This document shows positions 28,671-34,600 of a stretch of 64,000 nucleotides of DNA, in pieces (within the stretch, counting starts at the first letter, position 1; every line of letters begins with the position of its first letter). A program made the position numbers and the translations under genes. The stretch is from the NCBI RefSeq assembly GCF_055900595.2, contig NZ_CM148325.1. One strand, given 5' to 3'. Under the pieces are notes generated by a model. That model was not told where the DNA came from. It searched no databases and saw nothing but the letters and a program-made list of their open reading frames with translations.

Positions 28671-28851
28671 GGTTTCTCTTTCCACTAGACAGATACACTG
28701 GTTGTCGGCCTGGTGGTGGAAAACTTTATGCTGTGGAAAAGCGTCGGCACTGCTTTTGTTGCAGCAAACTTGCGTTTTTTGTGAGGGTCACACTCTATAG
28801 CGGCAGTTTATGGTACAAAGTATCAATCTTCTTCGAATCAGTGATACTCCT

Positions 28852-29715
28852 ATGGCTTATAGCATCGATATCATCTCCTGCATTACCGAACGGTTTATGG
28901 CGTTAACAGCCACTGAAAAGCGTATCGCACAATTTATTCTTGATGACGTCTCTGCCGCAGTAGAGTTGCCAATTGCTGAGCTGGCACGGTTAACGCAAAC
29001 CAGTCAGGCGTCGGTGACGCGTTTTGCCCGTGCACTGGGGTGCAAAGATGTCCGCGAGTTGAAAGTAAAACTGGCGCAGTCACTGGCTGTCGGGCAGCGG
29101 TTTATTCTCGATGTACCGGATCTTGACGGTGTTCAGGGGATCTACGAAGCGATTATTAGCGTGCTGGAAACGCATCGTCGTTCGCTGGATATGAATGCCA
29201 TCAGCCAGGCTGTAAGCTGGTTAAGTCAGGCGCGGCAAATTCTTGCATTGGGAACTGGCGGCGGTTCCACTATCTGTTCACAGGAGATTCAGTACCGTTT
29301 ATTCCGTCTGGGGCTACCAGTGGTCAGTCAGAATGATGCCCTGATGATGAGAATGATGTGCTCGGCAGTGATGCCGCAGGATGTGGTGATTGTGCTGTCG
29401 CTGGGCGGTTATACACCGGAAATCATCGAAAGTGCGGCAATCGCCCGTCAGTATGGCGCGCGTGTTATTGCCATTACGCCAGCACAAACACCGCTGGCGG
29501 AACAGGTGGATCTGGTATTGCCGTTACTGGTTCAGGAAAGTGATTACATCTTTAAGCCCACCCCTTCCCGCTACGCGATGTTAGCCATGGTCGATGTACT
29601 GGCAACAGAACTGGCAATGGCAAATAAAGCGCAGGCGAAAGATCGCCTGCGGCGGATAAAACTGGTGTTAGACAGCCACCGTGGGGGCGCTAACCGCCAG
29701 CCACTTGGCGATTAG
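28852..29715 (+). CDS. RpiR/MurR-family transcriptional regulator (HTH + SIS domain)
   Basis: ORF 28810..29715; HTH AELARLTQTSQASVTRFARALG; start may be 28852 or 28897. Confidence 0.7.
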   Translation: MAYSIDIISCITERFMALTATEKRIAQFILDDVSAAVELPIAELARLTQTSQASVTRFARALGCKDVRELKVKLAQSLAVGQRFILDVPDLDGVQGIYEAIISVLETHRRSLDMNAISQAVSWLSQARQILALGTGGGSTICSQEIQYRLFRLGLPVVSQNDALMMRMMCSAVMPQDVVIVLSLGGYTPEIIESAAIARQYGARVIAITPAQTPLAEQVDLVLPLLVQESDYIFKPTPSRYAMLAMVDVLATELAMANKAQAKDRLRRIKLVLDSHRGGANRQPLGD

Positions 29716-29724
29716 CACTGTCGG

Positions 29725-31194
29725 TTATGCTTCTTCAGGTTTGGTGATCACGACACTCTGGTTTTCACGCTCATTGGTGATAATCGCCAAAGCTTCTTCC
29801 CGGCTGACCTGACTAGCTGGCGTTACCAACGTCACCAGTACGCCAGCGACCAGGCTGCCCAGCACTGACGGAATACACGGATTACCCCAGTAAGCCAGCC
29901 AGTCGGCATTCATCAGCACCACAATGGACATCACCATACCGCTCACTAACGCCGCCAGCGCGCCCTGCCAGTTAAAGCGTAGCCAGAAGCGACCGAGGAT
30001 TGAGCAGATAAACAGCCCGGACATCAGCATCGAAATCATTTTGGTAATGTAGCTGATGATGTCATTAGAGGTCAGAGCAAAGGCCAGCGCCAGGCCAATA
30101 ACAAAGGTCAACATCCAGCGTGAGTAAGTAATGGCCTTGTCCTCCGGCGGCATTCTGCCGGTAATCATGGTGTAGACGTCGCGCATCATAATCGCCACTG
30201 CCGCAATGGCATCGGAGCTGGCAGAAGACATGGTGGCAGAAAGCCCGGCAATCAGTACCACCAGCCCAAGAATGGCGGGTAAGAAGCTGGTCGCGAACAA
30301 GAAGGCATAGTTACTGTTTTCCAGATTCGGGTTCATGGTGAACGCCGCCATGCCGATAATGGCAGGCAGAATCGAGAAGAACAGATACAACACGCCAGTA
30401 ATAACAAATGAACGCCGTACAGAGGGAACGTCTTTTCCCGAGTAAATACGCTGGCGATAAGATGGTGTGGCCAGTACGCCGACACCAATAACCAGCGCCA
30501 GCGAAAGCGCAGGCAGCACGCCCATTTTATCAATCGCAAACAGGCTCATCGCTTTTGGGTCCATCGCCTGTTCAATCGCACTCCAGCCGCCAACGTGAAC
30601 AACGGCAAGAATAGCCATTAATATAAAGCCAAAGAACAGAATTAGGGCCTGAATAGTATCTGTCCACACTACCGCCGAATAACCACCGATAATAACGTAA
30701 ATCGCAAAAGCTAAGGCAATAATTAATTTTGCCACCGTAAGATCAATACCTGTTGCCCAGGCAAGATACATACTCCCACCTAATATATGCGCCCCCAGCC
30801 AGCCAATAGAGGCAATAAATATCATCAGGCCGACAATATTTTTAATTAAATGGCTGCCGCCAGTATAATAAGATATTTCTTCACTCATGGTCATAAAACG
30901 TAATTTACGTACCGGTGCAAACAGCCACGCCACCAGTAATATACCTACGGCCCCACCGACGCCATAAAGCATTCCGGCCCAGCCATTGCTGTAGCCAAAG
31001 CCCACTGCGCCCATACTGGAACCAGTGCCAACCATCGTGGCAACGGTTGACCCCAGCGTCAGAAACAGCGGCAGCGAACGCCCGCCCAGCAGAAAATCTT
31101 CTCCGTTTTTCTGATTACGAGAAACAAACCAACCAAGCCAAATCATGGCGATGGCATAAATAATAAAGCCGACTAAAAAGATATGACTGTTCAT
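29725..31194 (-). CDS. sodium:solute symporter family transporter
   Basis: 489 aa, about 13 predicted TM helices; SSS-like N-terminus GGRSLPLFLTLGSTVATMVGTGSSMGAVGFGYSNG. Confidence 0.75.
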   Translation of the reverse strand: MNSHIFLVGFIIYAIAMIWLGWFVSRNQKNGEDFLLGGRSLPLFLTLGSTVATMVGTGSSMGAVGFGYSNGWAGMLYGVGGAVGILLVAWLFAPVRKLRFMTMSEEISYYTGGSHLIKNIVGLMIFIASIGWLGAHILGGSMYLAWATGIDLTVAKLIIALAFAIYVIIGGYSAVVWTDTIQALILFFGFILMAILAVVHVGGWSAIEQAMDPKAMSLFAIDKMGVLPALSLALVIGVGVLATPSYRQRIYSGKDVPSVRRSFVITGVLYLFFSILPAIIGMAAFTMNPNLENSNYAFLFATSFLPAILGLVVLIAGLSATMSSASSDAIAAVAIMMRDVYTMITGRMPPEDKAITYSRWMLTFVIGLALAFALTSNDIISYITKMISMLMSGLFICSILGRFWLRFNWQGALAALVSGMVMSIVVLMNADWLAYWGNPCIPSVLGSLVAGVLVTLVTPASQVSREEALAIITNERENQSVVITKPEEA

Positions 31195-31296
31195 AATTCA
31201 CATCCTGCCAGTAGAGAGAGAATAATGTAAGAGTTCCCGGAGTGCTGAATGTATTCAGCACTCAATTGCGGTCTGTTTTTTTAATTCTTAAATTTA

Positions 31297-33147: not shown

Positions 33148-33338
33148 TCCATTTCTGCAATGGTGACAAGTTAACCATTTACAAGGATGAAAAACAGTGG
33201 AAAACTACGCAAAACCCAGATGATTTTATGATACTTTTATTCATAAACTATAAGATAAATAAACTAAATATTTATATTTCATTTAGTTACAAATGATACT
33301 CACATCCGATACGGTGAAAAACTTAAAAGGTAAATGTT

Positions 33339-34559
33339 ATGAAATACCACTCAGAACCTCTGGTTCCCCATAAATCGGCCCTGATGCAAATGCCCGCAAA
33401 TCTCCTTGCCGAAGATGTCTGTTTACCTGCCGCGATCATTAAAAAGCAGGCCCTGGAGAACAACATTGCGTGGATGCAGCGTTATGCTGACGCGCGCGGC
33501 GTTTCGCTGGCACCGCACGGTAAAACCACCATGACGCCGTGGATTTTTCAGGCGCAGCAGGCGGCTGGTGCCTGGGCAATAGGTGTCGGTAGCGCATGGC
33601 AGGCTGGTGCGGCAATGGCGAGCGGTATTCAGCGAGTGCTGATGGTTAACCAGCTGGTCGGCAAGGCGAATATGCAGTTGATTGCCCAGTTGCAACGACA
33701 TTACCCGACGGTCGATTTTATCTGCTGTATCGACAGCATTGAGAACGCCCGCGCTTTGTCTGCCTTTTTTGCCAGTCAGCAACAGACACTGAACGTGATG
33801 ATTGAGTTGGGTGTCCCCGGCGGACGCTGTGGCTGCCGCTCAACGGATGCCGCACTGGCACTGGCTAAACAGGCGGCCCAATTACCAGGGCTACGTCTGC
33901 GCGGGCTTGAGTTATATGAAGGTGTTTTACACGGTGACGATCCACAACCGCAGGTAGAAGCACTGCTGCGGGATGCCGCACAACTGGCCTGTGATATGGC
34001 AAGTCTGGTTGATGGCGAGTTTATTCTCACCGGAGCAGGCACGGTCTGGTATGACGTGGTGTGCAATATCTGGCTGGCGGCAGAAAAGCCTGATAACTGC
34101 CGCATTGTTATTCGCCCTGGCTGCTACATCACTCACGACACCGGGATCTACGACGCGGCACAACAACAGTTGCTTGCCCGTGATCCTGTGGCCTGTGATC
34201 TGGCAGGCGATCTCACATCTGCGCTGGAACTGGTCGCCATGGTGCAATCGGTGCCGGAAGCTGATCGTGCGGTGGTAAATTTTGGTAAGCGTGATTGCGC
34301 CTTCGACGCCGGACTGCCGCAACCAGTCGCCCACTATCGCAACGGCAAATCACTGGCATTTGATCCACAGGCGATTCGCAGTACAGGCATTATGGATCAG
34401 CACTGCATGTTGCAACTGTCAGCTAATAGCGACGTGCAAGTGGGGGATATTCTGGTGTTTGGCACATCGCATCCGTGCCTGACCTTCGACAAATGGAAAA
34501 CGTTGTTATTGGCTGATGACGACTACAACGTACTGGCAGAATTAGACACTCTCTTCTAA
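33339..34559 (+). CDS. DSD1-like (alanine-racemase-fold) PLP-dependent amino acid deaminase/aldolase
   Basis: 406 aa; LAPHGKTTM PLP-lysine motif typical of the family. Confidence 0.65.
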   Translation: MKYHSEPLVPHKSALMQMPANLLAEDVCLPAAIIKKQALENNIAWMQRYADARGVSLAPHGKTTMTPWIFQAQQAAGAWAIGVGSAWQAGAAMASGIQRVLMVNQLVGKANMQLIAQLQRHYPTVDFICCIDSIENARALSAFFASQQQTLNVMIELGVPGGRCGCRSTDAALALAKQAAQLPGLRLRGLELYEGVLHGDDPQPQVEALLRDAAQLACDMASLVDGEFILTGAGTVWYDVVCNIWLAAEKPDNCRIVIRPGCYITHDTGIYDAAQQQLLARDPVACDLAGDLTSALELVAMVQSVPEADRAVVNFGKRDCAFDAGLPQPVAHYRNGKSLAFDPQAIRSTGIMDQHCMLQLSANSDVQVGDILVFGTSHPCLTFDKWKTLLLADDDYNVLAELDTLF

Positions 34560-34564
34560 GAATA

Positions 34565-34600
34565 CCCCTTCGGTTAATTATCGAAGGGGCATTTTTATTG
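34565..34600 (+). terminator. rho-independent terminator after the DSD1-like gene
   Basis: ccccttcggttaattatcgaagggg followed by catttttatt. Confidence 0.6.

What the first reader, a model, noticed from the sequence alone, without database searches (positions are those of the whole stretch)
28690..34600. Five-gene catabolic island between tsr and btsT
An RpiR/SIS regulator, a Na+/solute symporter, a RidA deaminase, a D-aminoacylase-like amidohydrolase and a DSD1-like PLP enzyme lie where, as I recall, K-12 has tsr and btsT adjacent. Deacylase + PLP deaminase/dehydratase + RidA (which quenches enamine/imine products) suggests import and breakdown of an N-acylated D-amino acid or amino-sugar acid; the SIS-domain regulator hints at a phosphorylated or sugar-like effector. 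Composition looks host-like rather than recently acquired. The substrate is not evident from sequence.
Basis: partly seen in the sequence, partly recalled or inferred. Interest (0 to 1): 0.55.

Follow-up and report, generated by a model that had tools for sequence, protein, structure and literature searches.

The report
Oxidised amino-sugar catabolic island in E. coli
The five genes between tsr and btsT are a trimmed E. coli copy of the "ong" pathway, already worked out in a marine bacterium, which imports and breaks down the acid form of N-acetylglucosamine, so the find is real but largely explained.

Summary
Five intact genes (window 28731-34598) lie between tsr and btsT, which are adjacent in K-12. 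193 of 5426 complete E. coli genomes carry them, always beside tsr. Composition matches the flanks and there are no mobility genes.

The substrate question is largely answered by published work. The genes are one-to-one homologues of ongR, ongIT, ongD, ongB and ongC of Pseudoalteromonas prydzensis. That pathway imports 2-acetamido-2-deoxy-D-gluconate (GlcNAc1A), deacetylates it, then deaminates it to 2-keto-3-deoxygluconate. The E. coli deacetylase keeps 17 of 18 PpOngB active-site residues, including the Ser and Gln that separate OngB from D-aminoacylases. Jiang et al. 2022 already list E. coli strains as "ong cluster +" in a supplement. The island lacks the kinase, hexosaminidase, outer-membrane receptor and LPMO, so it is probably a scavenging module that feeds core enzymes.

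One unreported detail: the only variable pocket residue is Asn here. Asn co-occurs in relatives with DgoK/DgoA-type rather than KdgK/Eda-type genes. The enterobacterial form may therefore take the galacto epimer.

Nothing has been tested in E. coli. Interest is modest.

The parts
28731..34598 (.). Extent of the island relative to K-12. It lies between the tsr promoter region and the CRP-like TGTGA-N6-TCACA site upstream of btsT.
   Evidence: Local alignment of the K-12 tsr-btsT spacer to the window. blastn-short finds no trace of the K-12-specific 90 bp in the island. No flanking direct or inverted repeats.
28811..28825 (+). Palindrome TGGTACAAAGTATCA, 27 nt upstream of the ongR start codon. 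Candidate OngR operator (inferred).
   Evidence: G[G/A]TACTTTGTACCA is present at the same position in 15 of 15 Enterobacterales loci. There is one exact copy in the window. It forms a 21-nt inverted-repeat pair with 33229-33249 (I4).
28852..29715 (+). ongR homologue: MurR/RpiR-family HTH + SIS regulator, 287 aa. The upstream ATG at 28810 is not the real start.
   Evidence: NCBIfam HexR/MurR-RpiR hits. PGAP start in EC42405. 44% identity, full length, to Pseudoalteromonas OngR. The Klebsiella orthologue is 287 aa with PF01418 + PF01380.
29725..31194 (-). ongIT homologue: sodium:solute symporter family inner-membrane transporter, 489 aa.
   Evidence: TIGR00813 SSS match, but below the PutP, PanF and ActP cut-offs. 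58% identity to Pseudoalteromonas OngIT. 67-69% identity to Vibrio cluster copies.
31240..31263 (-). Near-perfect hairpin GAGTGCTGAAT-AC-ATTCAGCACTC in the ongD-ongIT spacer. Possibly a partial terminator, a processing site or a protein site. Function unknown.
   Evidence: Read directly from the sequence. Other genera carry different hairpins in the same spacer.
31297..31686 (-). ongD homologue: RidA-family protein, 129 aa. It keeps the PPAR motif with the arginine needed for imine hydrolysis.
   Evidence: TIGR00004 Rid family match. 84% identity to Pseudoalteromonas OngD. The motif is read from the translation.
31696..33138 (-). ongB homologue: subtype V amidohydrolase, 480 aa. Predicted N-acetyl-2-amino-2-deoxy-hexonate deacetylase.
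   Evidence: 84% identity to KleDacyl (PDB 9G5M) and 54% identity, gapless, to PpOngB (PDB 9KB1). 17 of 18 PpOngB active-site residues are retained, with Gly348 replaced by Asn345.
33168..33249 (.). Three invariant non-coding blocks in the divergent ongB/ongC control region: 33168-33185, 33191-33214 and 33229-33249. The last is related to the ongR-upstream element.
   Evidence: Alignment of 10 genera, with blocks invariant in all. Inverted-repeat pair I4.
33287..33298 (.). Fourth conserved block (GTATCA..TAAC) proximal to ongC. It repeats the GTATCA half-site.
33339..34559 (+). ongC homologue: fold-type III PLP enzyme (Ala_racemase_N + D-ser_dehydrat domains), 406 aa. Predicted 2-amino-2-deoxy-hexonate ammonia-lyase.
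   Evidence: E = 4.6e-107 to PDB 3GWQ, with the PHGKT and HPC motifs aligned. 45% identity, full length, to Pseudoalteromonas OngC. Pfam domains are taken from the Klebsiella orthologue.
34565..34589 (+). Intrinsic-terminator-like hairpin (10-bp stem) followed by a T-run, 6 nt after the ongC stop codon.

Best explanation
The island is a reduced, five-gene version of the ong pathway for an oxidised amino sugar, an N-acetyl-2-amino-2-deoxy-D-hexonic acid. The substrate demonstrated for homologues is GlcNAc1A, the C1-oxidised form of N-acetylglucosamine.

Proposed mechanism:
1. The SSS symporter OngIT brings the free sugar acid across the inner membrane.
2. The zinc amidohydrolase OngB removes the acetyl group, giving the 2-amino-aldonic acid plus acetate.
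3. The PLP enzyme OngC eliminates the C3 hydroxyl and the amine, giving a 2-keto-3-deoxy-hexonate plus ammonia.
4. The RidA protein OngD presumably speeds hydrolysis of the enamine/imine intermediate.
5. Because the island has no kinase or aldolase, the keto-deoxy acid must be finished by core E. coli enzymes (KdgK/Eda, or DgoK/DgoA), yielding pyruvate and glyceraldehyde-3-phosphate.
6. OngR is a repressor relieved by the substrate or an intermediate. It probably binds the conserved GTATCA-containing elements upstream of ongR and ongB/ongC.

E. coli lacks the LPMO, the outer-membrane receptor and the periplasmic hexosaminidase. It would therefore scavenge the monomer made by other organisms or by chemical or enzymatic oxidation.

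Shown here by sequence: the homology, the active-site conservation, the synteny and the conserved non-coding elements. Shown elsewhere by experiment: the chemistry, in Pseudoalteromonas. Inferred: activity in E. coli, the hand-off to core enzymes, and the operator assignment.
For: - Homology. All five proteins are full-length best matches to the five cytoplasmic/inner-membrane ong genes of a Pseudoalteromonas whose OngB is 92% identical to the characterised PpOngB. Identities are R 44%, IT 58%, D 84%, B 54%, C 45%.
- Synteny. The same gene set and order recur in Vibrio, Thalassotalea, Psychromonas and Klebsiella.
- Active site. OngB keeps the Cys/His/His metal site, the catalytic Asp, all acetamido- and carboxylate-binding residues, and the OngB-specific Ala190, Glu223, Ala253, Ser287, Ser289 and Gln295. 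Ser292 and Gln298 were shown by mutagenesis to discriminate GlcNAc1A deacetylases from D-aminoacylases (PMC12017989).
- Genetics and biochemistry in strain ACAM 620. Each of ongIT, ongB, ongC and ongD is essential for growth on GlcNAc1A. OngB gives GlcN1A plus acetate. OngC gives KDG plus NH3. OngR is a repressor (PMC9537276).
- Downstream genes. Sister clusters carry a 2-keto-3-deoxy-sugar-acid kinase and aldolase immediately after ongIT.
- Prior listing. The authors' Supplementary Data 3 lists 13 E. coli strains and E. fergusonii as ong-cluster-positive with exactly these five genes.
- Selection. The genes are under purifying selection and intact.
- Regulation. Non-coding elements conserved across 10-15 genera argue for conserved regulation.
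Against: - No experiment exists for E. coli or any enterobacterium.
- The closest characterised protein, KleDacyl (84% identity), was reported as a D-acylase active on N-acetyl-D-Met, -Phe and -Trp (PMC12149444). However, kcat/Km was only 2.8 per min per mM with Km 32 mM, and GlcNAc1A was not tested.
- One pocket residue differs from PpOngB (Gly348 to Asn345).
- The island has no kinase, aldolase, hexosaminidase or LPMO, so a complete pathway depends on unlinked genes whose induction is unproven.
- The role of RidA is not established even in the model organism.
Confidence: 0.8

Rival explanations
1. Same pathway architecture, but the enterobacterial subtype, including this E. coli island, acts on the C4 epimer. 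N-acetyl-D-galactosaminic acid would be converted to D-galactosaminate, then to 2-keto-3-deoxy-D-galactonate, and finished by DgoK/DgoA rather than KdgK/Eda. This is a variant of the best explanation, differing only in substrate identity. It is not exclusive of the class-level statement.
For: - In Klebsiella, Leclercia, Cedecea, Rahnella and Buttiauxella, and independently in Paraburkholderia, the cluster carries a PF05035 DGOK kinase and a DgoA-type aldolase directly after ongIT.
- The Klebsiella copies are 51% identical to K-12 DgoK and 69% identical to K-12 DgoA.
- They have Val where Eda has Thr at the position I recall as setting C4 stereoselectivity (role of the residue from memory).
- Vibrio, Thalassotalea, Andreprevotia and P. 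entomophila clusters instead carry PfkB KdgK, with or without Eda.
- Across the family 17 of 18 OngB pocket residues are invariant. The only variable one is Asn in 16 of 16 DgoK-type clusters, Gly or Cys in 4 of 4 KdgK-type clusters, and Gly or Cys in 119 of 120 marine relatives of PpOngB.
- It is one of only 3 of 483 columns that separate the two types.
- Asn-type sequences are not monophyletic in a neighbour-joining tree.
- In KleDacyl this Asn (Asn342) contacts bound glycerol, as do Glu220 and Lys248. Glu220 is, by my own numbering offset, the counterpart of the PpOngB residue that binds the C4 hydroxyl.
- E. coli groups with Klebsiella and Leclercia and has Asn345.
Against: - Glu223 and all other hydroxyl-binding residues are unchanged.
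- The substrate binds as a flexible open chain, so one residue may not dictate C4 preference.
- DgoK/DgoA-like proteins could have drifted to KDG/KDPG.
- No natural source or catabolism of N-acetylgalactosaminic acid appears in the searched literature.
- The published authors treat the Klebsiella and Serratia clusters as GlcNAc1A clusters with 'kdgA'.
- The correlation rests on few independent clades and a crude tree.
- The E. coli island itself lacks the kinase and aldolase.
Confidence: 0.35
2. The cluster degrades N-acyl-D-amino acids. OngB would be a true D-aminoacylase releasing a D-amino acid such as D-Ser or D-Thr, which the DSD1-like enzyme dehydrates, with RidA quenching the enamine.
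For: - KleDacyl (84% identity) hydrolyses N-acetyl-D-Met, -Phe, -Trp and -aminobutyrate in vitro.
- OngC of Pseudoalteromonas also deaminates D-Ser and D-Thr.
- RefSeq names the gene 'N-acyl-D-amino-acid deacylase family'.
Against: - KleDacyl activity is very weak: kcat/Km 2.8 per min per mM and Km 19-32 mM, measured in 1 mM cobalt. That is about 30-fold below PpOngB on GlcNAc1A (1.6 per mM per s).
- The D-amino acids released (Met, Phe, Trp) have no beta leaving group for OngC.
- The pocket carries the polar OngB set rather than the Phe/Met/Leu/Met and Thr of AfDam, or the Arg of BbDam.
- PpOngB and two homologues show no activity on any N-acetyl-D-amino acid, including N-acetyl-D-Ser.
- Sugar-acid kinase and aldolase genes in sister clusters make no sense for amino-acid products.
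Confidence: 0.07
3. The island is a non-functional or decaying remnant in E. coli. Having lost the kinase/aldolase pair and being absent from 96% of strains, it confers no catabolic ability.
For: Only 3.6% of complete genomes keep it. The kinase/aldolase pair present in the Klebsiella and Leclercia relatives is missing, with just 9 bp between ongIT and ongR.
Against: - All five ORFs are full length.
- dN/dS is low, both within E. coli and against Klebsiella.
- Regulatory elements are conserved.
- Shimwellia and Franconibacter have the same five-gene form.
- E. coli has core dgoK/dgoA and, from general knowledge, kdgK/eda.
Confidence: 0.05

Closest known systems
ong cluster of Pseudoalteromonas prydzensis ACAM 620 (oxidative chitin utilisation; Jiang et al. 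2022, PMC9537276)
   Same: Same five functions: RpiR repressor OngR, SSS importer OngIT, RidA OngD, D-aminoacylase-like GlcNAc1A deacetylase OngB, and fold-type III PLP deaminase OngC. Identities are 44-84%, full length, and ongB-ongD adjacency is kept.
   Different: E. coli lacks ongOT-1 (TonB receptor), kdgK, ongA (GH20) and an LPMO. The gene order is rearranged (R and IT convergent, C divergent from B-D). OngB has Asn where PpOngB has Gly348. No experimental data exist for E. coli.
PpOngB, GlcNAc1A deacetylase (PDB 9KB1, 9KB3; Wang et al. 2025, PMC12017989)
   Same: 54% identical and gapless over 474 residues. 17 of 18 metal, catalytic and substrate-binding residues are identical, including the specificity residues Ser292 and Gln298.
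   Different: Gly348 is replaced by Asn345. Activity has not been measured.
KleDacyl, Klebsiella pneumoniae 'D-acylase' (PDB 9G5M, 9GV8; PMC12149444)
   Same: 84% identical orthologue. It is encoded in the syntenic Klebsiella cluster next to lgoTRD.
   Different: It was characterised only on N-acetyl-D-amino acids, with low efficiency. Its genomic context and GlcNAc1A were not considered in that paper. The Klebsiella cluster has two extra genes, DgoK-like and DgoA-like.
[quoted passage not shown]
   Same: Same fold and the same subtype V Cys/His/His + Asp site. E-values are 1e-136 to 1e-116.
   Different: The pocket is hydrophobic in AfDam and Arg-containing in Bb3285, with Thr at the Ser292 position. 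Neither enzyme is active on GlcNAc1A.
Salmonella dga D-glucosaminate pathway (PTS import, DgaE D-glucosaminate-6-phosphate ammonia-lyase, DgaF aldolase); recalled from memory, not checked here
   Same: It also converts a 2-amino-aldonic acid to a 2-keto-3-deoxy acid by PLP-dependent elimination, and it ends in an Eda-type aldolase.
   Different: It uses a phosphorylated substrate, a mannose-family PTS, a sigma-54 activator and an unrelated PLP fold. It has no deacetylase and no RidA.
E. coli dgoRKADT (D-galactonate, De Ley-Doudoroff pathway)
   Same: The kinase and aldolase found in the Klebsiella and Leclercia sister clusters are 51% and 69% identical to K-12 DgoK and DgoA. These are likely recipients of the island's product if the substrate is galacto-configured.
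   Different: They are not part of this island. The upstream chemistry is different (dehydratase DgoD acting on galactonate).

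Membership tests
ong-type oxidised amino-sugar (GlcNAc1A) catabolic cluster | OngB-type deacetylase: Cys/His/His metal site, catalytic Asp, and conserved acetamido- and carboxylate-binding residues | tested here: met
   C94, H219, H249, D365, L113, Y191, K251, Y282, S288, L367 and R376 are all identical to PpOngB (residue roles from PMC12017989).
ong-type oxidised amino-sugar (GlcNAc1A) catabolic cluster | OngB specificity signature: Ser (not Thr) at Pp292, Gln (not Leu or Arg) at Pp298, and small or polar Ala193, Ala256, Glu226, Ser290 | tested here: met
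   S289, Q295, A190, A253, E223 and S287. Invariant in all 80 fetched loci and 120 database relatives.
ong-type oxidised amino-sugar (GlcNAc1A) catabolic cluster | Gly at Pp348 (small residue in place of the AfDam Met) | tested here: not met
   Asn345 in E. coli and in all Enterobacterales and Paraburkholderia copies. Gly or Cys in the marine and Vibrio copies.
ong-type oxidised amino-sugar (GlcNAc1A) catabolic cluster | Linked OngC (fold-type III PLP deaminase), OngD (RidA), OngIT (SSS) and OngR (RpiR) | tested here: met
   All four are present and full length, 44-84% identical to the Pseudoalteromonas cluster proteins and 44-86% to the Vibrio copies.
ong-type oxidised amino-sugar (GlcNAc1A) catabolic cluster | Linked KDG kinase (kdgK) | tested here: not met
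   Only 9 bp separate ongIT and ongR. No kinase hit in the E. coli locus. The published supplement also scores E. coli kdgK as '-'.
ong-type oxidised amino-sugar (GlcNAc1A) catabolic cluster | Linked periplasmic GH20 hexosaminidase OngA and TonB-dependent receptor OngOT-1, plus an AA10 LPMO in the genome | tested here: not met
   Neither lies in or next to the island. The supplement scores E. coli lpmo, ongOT-1 and ongA as '-'. The whole genome of the window's strain cannot be inspected.
ong-type oxidised amino-sugar (GlcNAc1A) catabolic cluster | Growth on and induction by GlcNAc1A; deacetylation to GlcN1A; deamination to KDG | not testable with these tools
   Shown only for P. prydzensis and two Pseudoalteromonas OngB homologues.
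N-acyl-D-amino-acid deacylase (EC 3.5.1.81/82) | Side-chain pocket: Phe191/Met254/Leu298/Met346 (AfDam) or Arg295 (Bb3285), with Thr at the Pp292 position | tested here: not met
   The E. coli protein has Ala, Ala, Gln, Asn and Ser at these positions (definitions).
N-acyl-D-amino-acid deacylase (EC 3.5.1.81/82) | Efficient hydrolysis of N-acyl-D-amino acids | not testable with these tools
   The 84%-identical KleDacyl shows only weak activity, kcat/Km 1.5-2.8 per min per mM.
DSD1-like / D-threo-3-hydroxyaspartate dehydratase / D-threonine aldolase family (fold-type III PLP) | Ala_racemase_N + D-ser_dehydrat domains, PLP-lysine motif and C-terminal His-x-Cys metal motif | tested here: met
   PHGKT and SHPC motifs align with PDB 3GWQ at E = 4.6e-107. 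Pfam domains are from the orthologue. The roles of the motifs are from general knowledge of the family. Only 106 bits against the BhcC equivalog cut-off of 690, so it is not that enzyme.
Mobile genomic island | Integrase or transposase, tRNA or att site, flanking direct repeats, atypical composition | tested here: not met
   No such genes. No boundary repeats. GC equals the flanks. The same chromosomal neighbourhood (lgoTRD and/or tsr) is seen in Klebsiella and Leclercia. dS against Klebsiella is saturated, as expected for vertical descent.

The most novel reading that the evidence does not exclude
The enterobacterial and Burkholderiales branch of ong-like clusters, to which this E. coli island belongs, may be specific for the C4 epimer rather than for GlcNAc1A. 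The route would run from N-acetyl-D-galactosaminic acid to D-galactosaminate to 2-keto-3-deoxy-D-galactonate, and then join the De Ley-Doudoroff enzymes DgoK/DgoA. A single Gly-to-Asn change in the OngB pocket would mark the switch. That would be an undescribed catabolic route for an oxidised form of GalNAc, a sugar abundant in mucin. It would also mean the published assignment of the Klebsiella and Escherichia clusters to oxidative chitin use is wrong in its substrate.
Probability: 0.35. Interest if true: 0.55.

Novelty: new member of a known kind. Interest (0 to 1): 0.3.

Why it matters
1. Annotation. These genes are still named generically in RefSeq ('N-acyl-D-amino-acid deacylase family', 'amino acid deaminase'). 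One of them has been studied as an industrial D-acylase without reference to its likely natural substrate. Linking them to the ong pathway gives a testable function for an accessory locus found in about 1 in 28 E. coli genomes. The deacetylase is widespread in Klebsiella pneumoniae assemblies: its exact sequence is indexed in 50,880 blocks of the contig collection.

2. Ecology. It suggests that some enterobacteria without an LPMO of their own can scavenge oxidised amino sugars. These could be released by chitin-oxidising neighbours or arise by oxidation of host or dietary amino sugars. The second source is my speculation.

3. Substrate. If the Asn plus DgoK/DgoA correlation reflects a switch to the galacto epimer, it would define a new sugar-acid pathway and a simple single-residue specificity marker.

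Tried and rejected
- Rfam at gathering thresholds over the whole window: nothing inside the island, so no riboswitch or known sRNA.
- Search for target-site duplications, terminal inverted repeats or mobility genes at the island ends: none. Recent mobile acquisition rejected.
- Looked for remnants of the island in the K-12-specific 90 bp of the tsr-btsT spacer: none.
- Sigma-70 consensus scan: no more hits than in shuffled sequence (7 against 6.9 expected). I do not assign promoters.
- NCBIfam equivalogs (HexR, MurR, PutP, PanF, RutC, BhcC, dihydroorotase and others): all far below curated cut-offs, so none of those names applies.
- Exact-sequence look-up of KleDacyl with the first His of the tag included failed. 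It succeeded once the tag residue was removed.
- Literature searches for galactosaminate or GalNAc1A catabolism, and for an E. coli-specific study of this locus, returned nothing relevant.
- I considered the Salmonella-type dga D-glucosaminate PTS pathway and rejected it. There is no PTS, no sigma-54 activator and no DgaE-type enzyme in the island. A DagR-like activator plus mannose-family PTS lies beside the cluster in one Klebsiella locus only, and scores below the cut-off.
- I did not run structure prediction. An 84%-identical crystal structure already exists, and docking is not available here.

Full report

Yes. ORF listing and translation show five intact genes between tsr and btsT. Using PGAP annotation of the nearest E. 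coli genome and the lengths of Klebsiella orthologues, the true coordinates are:

| Gene | Window coordinates | Strand | Product |
|---|---|---|---|
| ongR | 28852-29715 | + | RpiR/SIS regulator |
| ongIT | 29725-31194 | - | sodium:solute symporter |
| ongD | 31297-31686 | - | RidA |
| ongB | 31696-33138 | - | D-aminoacylase-like amidohydrolase |
| ongC | 33339-34559 | + | fold-type III PLP enzyme |

In K-12 MG1655, tsr and btsT are neighbours separated by 377 bp. Aligning that spacer to the window shows homology up to about 28730 on the tsr side and from about 34599 on the btsT side. About 90 bp of unrelated K-12 sequence sits where the 5.87-kb island lies.

The left edge falls just beyond a TAAAGTTT-N11-GCCGACAA element that looks like the sigma-28 promoter of tsr. 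The right edge falls just before a TGTGA-N6-TCACA CRP-type site and two ACCGCT[C/T]A repeats upstream of btsT. I assign those sites from memory of the literature, not from a test here. So the island sits cleanly between two promoters.

**2. Distribution and origin**

- 193 of 5426 complete E. coli genomes (3.6%) carry the island at 98.4-99.1% identity. All copies are chromosomal.
- All 193 have the same tsr-ongR junction. 159 have the same ongC-btsT junction at 80% coverage or more.
- GC content is 51.4%, against 50-52% for the flanks.
- There are no integrase or transposase genes and no flanking repeats.
- The same cluster sits next to tsr in Leclercia and next to lgoTRD in Klebsiella pneumoniae. 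In E. coli, lgoT is the gene on the other side of tsr.
- dS against Klebsiella is saturated (1.2 to above 2) while dN is 0.03-0.20. Within E. coli dN is 0-0.003 and dS 0-0.05.

The simplest reading is an old enterobacterial locus, kept under purifying selection in a minority of E. coli and lost in most. It does not look like a recent mobile acquisition.

**3. What the genes are**

The decisive hit came from solved structures. The amidohydrolase is 84% identical to PDB 9G5M/9GV8 (Klebsiella 'KleDacyl'). It is 54% identical, without a single gap over 474 residues, to PDB 9KB1/9KB3, named PpOngB or 'carbohydrate de-N-acetylated protein'.

PpOngB is the first cytoplasmic enzyme of the ong pathway of Pseudoalteromonas prydzensis ACAM 620 (Jiang et al. 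2022, PMC9537276). That eight-gene cluster encodes:
- a TonB receptor (ongOT-1);
- a PLP deaminase (ongC);
- an RpiR repressor (ongR);
- a D-aminoacylase-like deacetylase (ongB);
- a RidA protein (ongD);
- an SSS transporter (ongIT);
- a KDG kinase (kdgK);
- a GH20 hexosaminidase (ongA).

Knock-outs showed ongIT, ongB, ongC, ongD and kdgK to be essential for growth on GlcNAc1A. OngB makes GlcN1A plus acetate. OngC makes KDG plus ammonia. OngR represses ongC, ongB and ongD.

I fetched the cluster of a Pseudoalteromonas whose OngB is 92% identical to PpOngB. The five E. coli proteins match its OngR, OngIT, OngD, OngB and OngC at 44, 58, 84, 54 and 45% identity, full length, each to its counterpart. 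Vibrio, Thalassotalea and Psychromonas loci show the same set.

**4. Residue-level test of the deacetylase**

Wang et al. 2025 (PMC12017989) solved PpOngB with GlcNAc1A bound. They defined 18 residues: the metal ligands, the catalytic Asp, the binders of the acetamido and carboxylate groups, and the binders of the C3-C6 hydroxyls. They showed by mutagenesis that Ser292 (Thr in D-aminoacylases) and Gln298 (Leu or Arg in D-aminoacylases) set the specificity. PpOngB and two homologues do not touch N-acetyl-D-amino acids, and AfDam and BbDam do not touch GlcNAc1A.

Because the alignment is gapless, the mapping is exact. The E. coli protein has 17 of the 18 residues, including Ser289 and Gln295. 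Only Gly348 is replaced, by Asn345.

The RidA protein keeps its PPAR arginine motif. The PLP enzyme keeps the PHGKT lysine motif and the HPC motif in alignment with PDB 3GWQ.

**5. The D-acylase report for the Klebsiella orthologue**

Martinez-Rodriguez and Gavira 2025 (PMC12149444) characterised KleDacyl as a D-acylase. The numbers are low. On N-acetyl-D-Met, kcat/Km is 2.8 per min per mM with Km 32 mM, measured in 1 mM cobalt. That is roughly 30 times below PpOngB on GlcNAc1A (1.6 per mM per s). The authors did not test sugar acids and did not discuss the gene's neighbours.

I read this as promiscuous activity of a sugar-acid deacetylase. It remains the only direct biochemical datum for an enterobacterial copy, and I list it as evidence against.

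**6. Has this been noticed before?**

Yes, in a supplement. Supplementary Data 3 of Jiang et al. lists 13 E. coli strains, E. fergusonii ECD227 and an Escherichia sp. as 'ong cluster +'. Locus tags are given for ongC, ongR, ongB, ongD and ongIT, and '-' is scored for lpmo, ongOT-1, kdgK and ongA. What remains new is the anatomy in E. coli and the points in sections 7 and 8.

**7. Regulation (inferred)**

- A 15-nt palindrome, TGGTACAAAGTATCA (28811-28825), lies 27 nt upstream of ongR. It is present at the same place in 15 of 15 Enterobacterales loci.
- A related 21-nt element lies at 33229-33249, upstream of ongB and in the same orientation relative to the gene (pair I4).
- The 200-bp ongB/ongC divergent region contains three blocks that are invariant across ten genera (33168-33185, 33191-33214, 33229-33243). 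A fourth block nearer ongC repeats the GTATCA half-site.
- A good terminator hairpin follows ongC (34565-34589). A near-perfect hairpin sits between ongD and ongIT (31240-31263).

These are phylogenetic footprints. Assigning them to OngR is a hypothesis. Co-regulation has not been measured.

**8. An unreported twist**

Most enterobacterial relatives have two extra genes between ongIT and ongR:
- a PF05035 2-keto-3-deoxygalactonokinase, 51% identical to K-12 DgoK;
- an aldolase above the NCBIfam cut-off for KDPGal aldolase, 69% identical to K-12 DgoA. It carries the DgoA-type Val where Eda has Thr.

Paraburkholderia clusters have the same pair. Vibrio, Thalassotalea, Andreprevotia and P. entomophila clusters instead have a PfkB KdgK, with or without Eda.

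Across 80 loci and 120 database relatives, 17 pocket residues of OngB never vary. The eighteenth is distributed as follows:

| Cluster type | Residue at Pp348 / Ec345 |
|---|---|
| DgoK-type clusters | Asn in 16 of 16 |
| KdgK-type clusters | Gly or Cys in 4 of 4 |
| Marine relatives of PpOngB | Gly or Cys in 119 of 120 |

It is one of only three alignment columns that separate the two types. Asn-type sequences are not a single clade in a rough neighbour-joining tree.

This fits a switch from a gluco- to a galacto-configured substrate. In that case the product would be KDGal rather than KDG. E. coli has Asn345 and groups with Klebsiella and Leclercia, but it has lost, or never had, the kinase/aldolase pair.

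I found no literature on galactosaminate catabolism. The evidence is correlative, rests on few clades, and conflicts with the published assumption that these are GlcNAc1A clusters. I put it at about one in three.

**9. Verdict**

The finding is a real, well-delimited accessory locus. Its function is explained, by strong homology to a characterised pathway, as import and breakdown of an N-acetyl-hexosaminic acid. It is a new, untested and reduced member of a known kind rather than a new system. The exact epimer used by the enterobacterial form is an open and easily testable question.

Noticed in passing
L083-L085 (Klebsiella pneumoniae) 13526-14984; L003 (Leclercia) 13476-14973: The enterobacterial ong-like clusters carry DgoK- and DgoA-type genes rather than the PfkB KdgK/Eda pair of marine clusters. 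The 2022 paper appears to call these 'kdgK'/'kdgA'.
   Followed up: yes
L085 17411-21440: In one Klebsiella locus the cluster is followed by a sigma-54 activator related to DagR (494 bits, below the cut-off of 1400) and a mannose-family PTS. This may be a D-glucosaminate-type system lying next to the ong-like cluster. It is absent from L083 and L084.
   Followed up: partly
L011, L013, L033 (Enterobacter sp. Ag1, Cedecea neteri, Enterobacteriaceae RIT693): A variant of the cluster has ongC, ongB, ongD and ongR but no SSS transporter, so a different importer must serve it.
   Followed up: no
L015-L082 (many Pseudomonas loci): In fluorescent pseudomonads only ongR and ongB are adjacent, overlapping by one or two bases. 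ongC, ongD and ongIT homologues are not nearby at the thresholds used, which suggests a differently organised pathway.
   Followed up: no
window 34599-34680: A CRP-type site (TGTGATCTCAATCACA) and two ACCGCT[C/T]A direct repeats upstream of btsT are retained intact immediately to the right of the island. They resemble the CRP and BtsR (YehT) sites described for the btsT promoter (from memory).
   Followed up: partly
window 38231-38852 (-): A BrnT/BrnA-type toxin-antitoxin pair lies between yjiA and the restriction genes. This is by synteny with strain MB52.
   Followed up: no
window 39004-49231: This is the immigration-control region. It holds an Mrr-like endonuclease, a type I R-M system (hsdM/S/R), and a second S-subunit fragment with an N6-methylase. 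The best E. coli match to 37000-61000 is only 97.7% identical over 95% of the query, so the region is strain-specific.
   Followed up: no
window 13917-14235 and 5831-6008, 13695-13777: Three tandem tRNA-Leu genes, and REP-type naRNA4 matches. Ordinary E. coli features.
   Followed up: no
window 57891-59948 (+): A 685-aa ORF matching a 'pentapeptide repeat-containing protein' sits next to yjiL/yjiM and an SdiA-regulated-domain gene. Function unknown.
   Followed up: no
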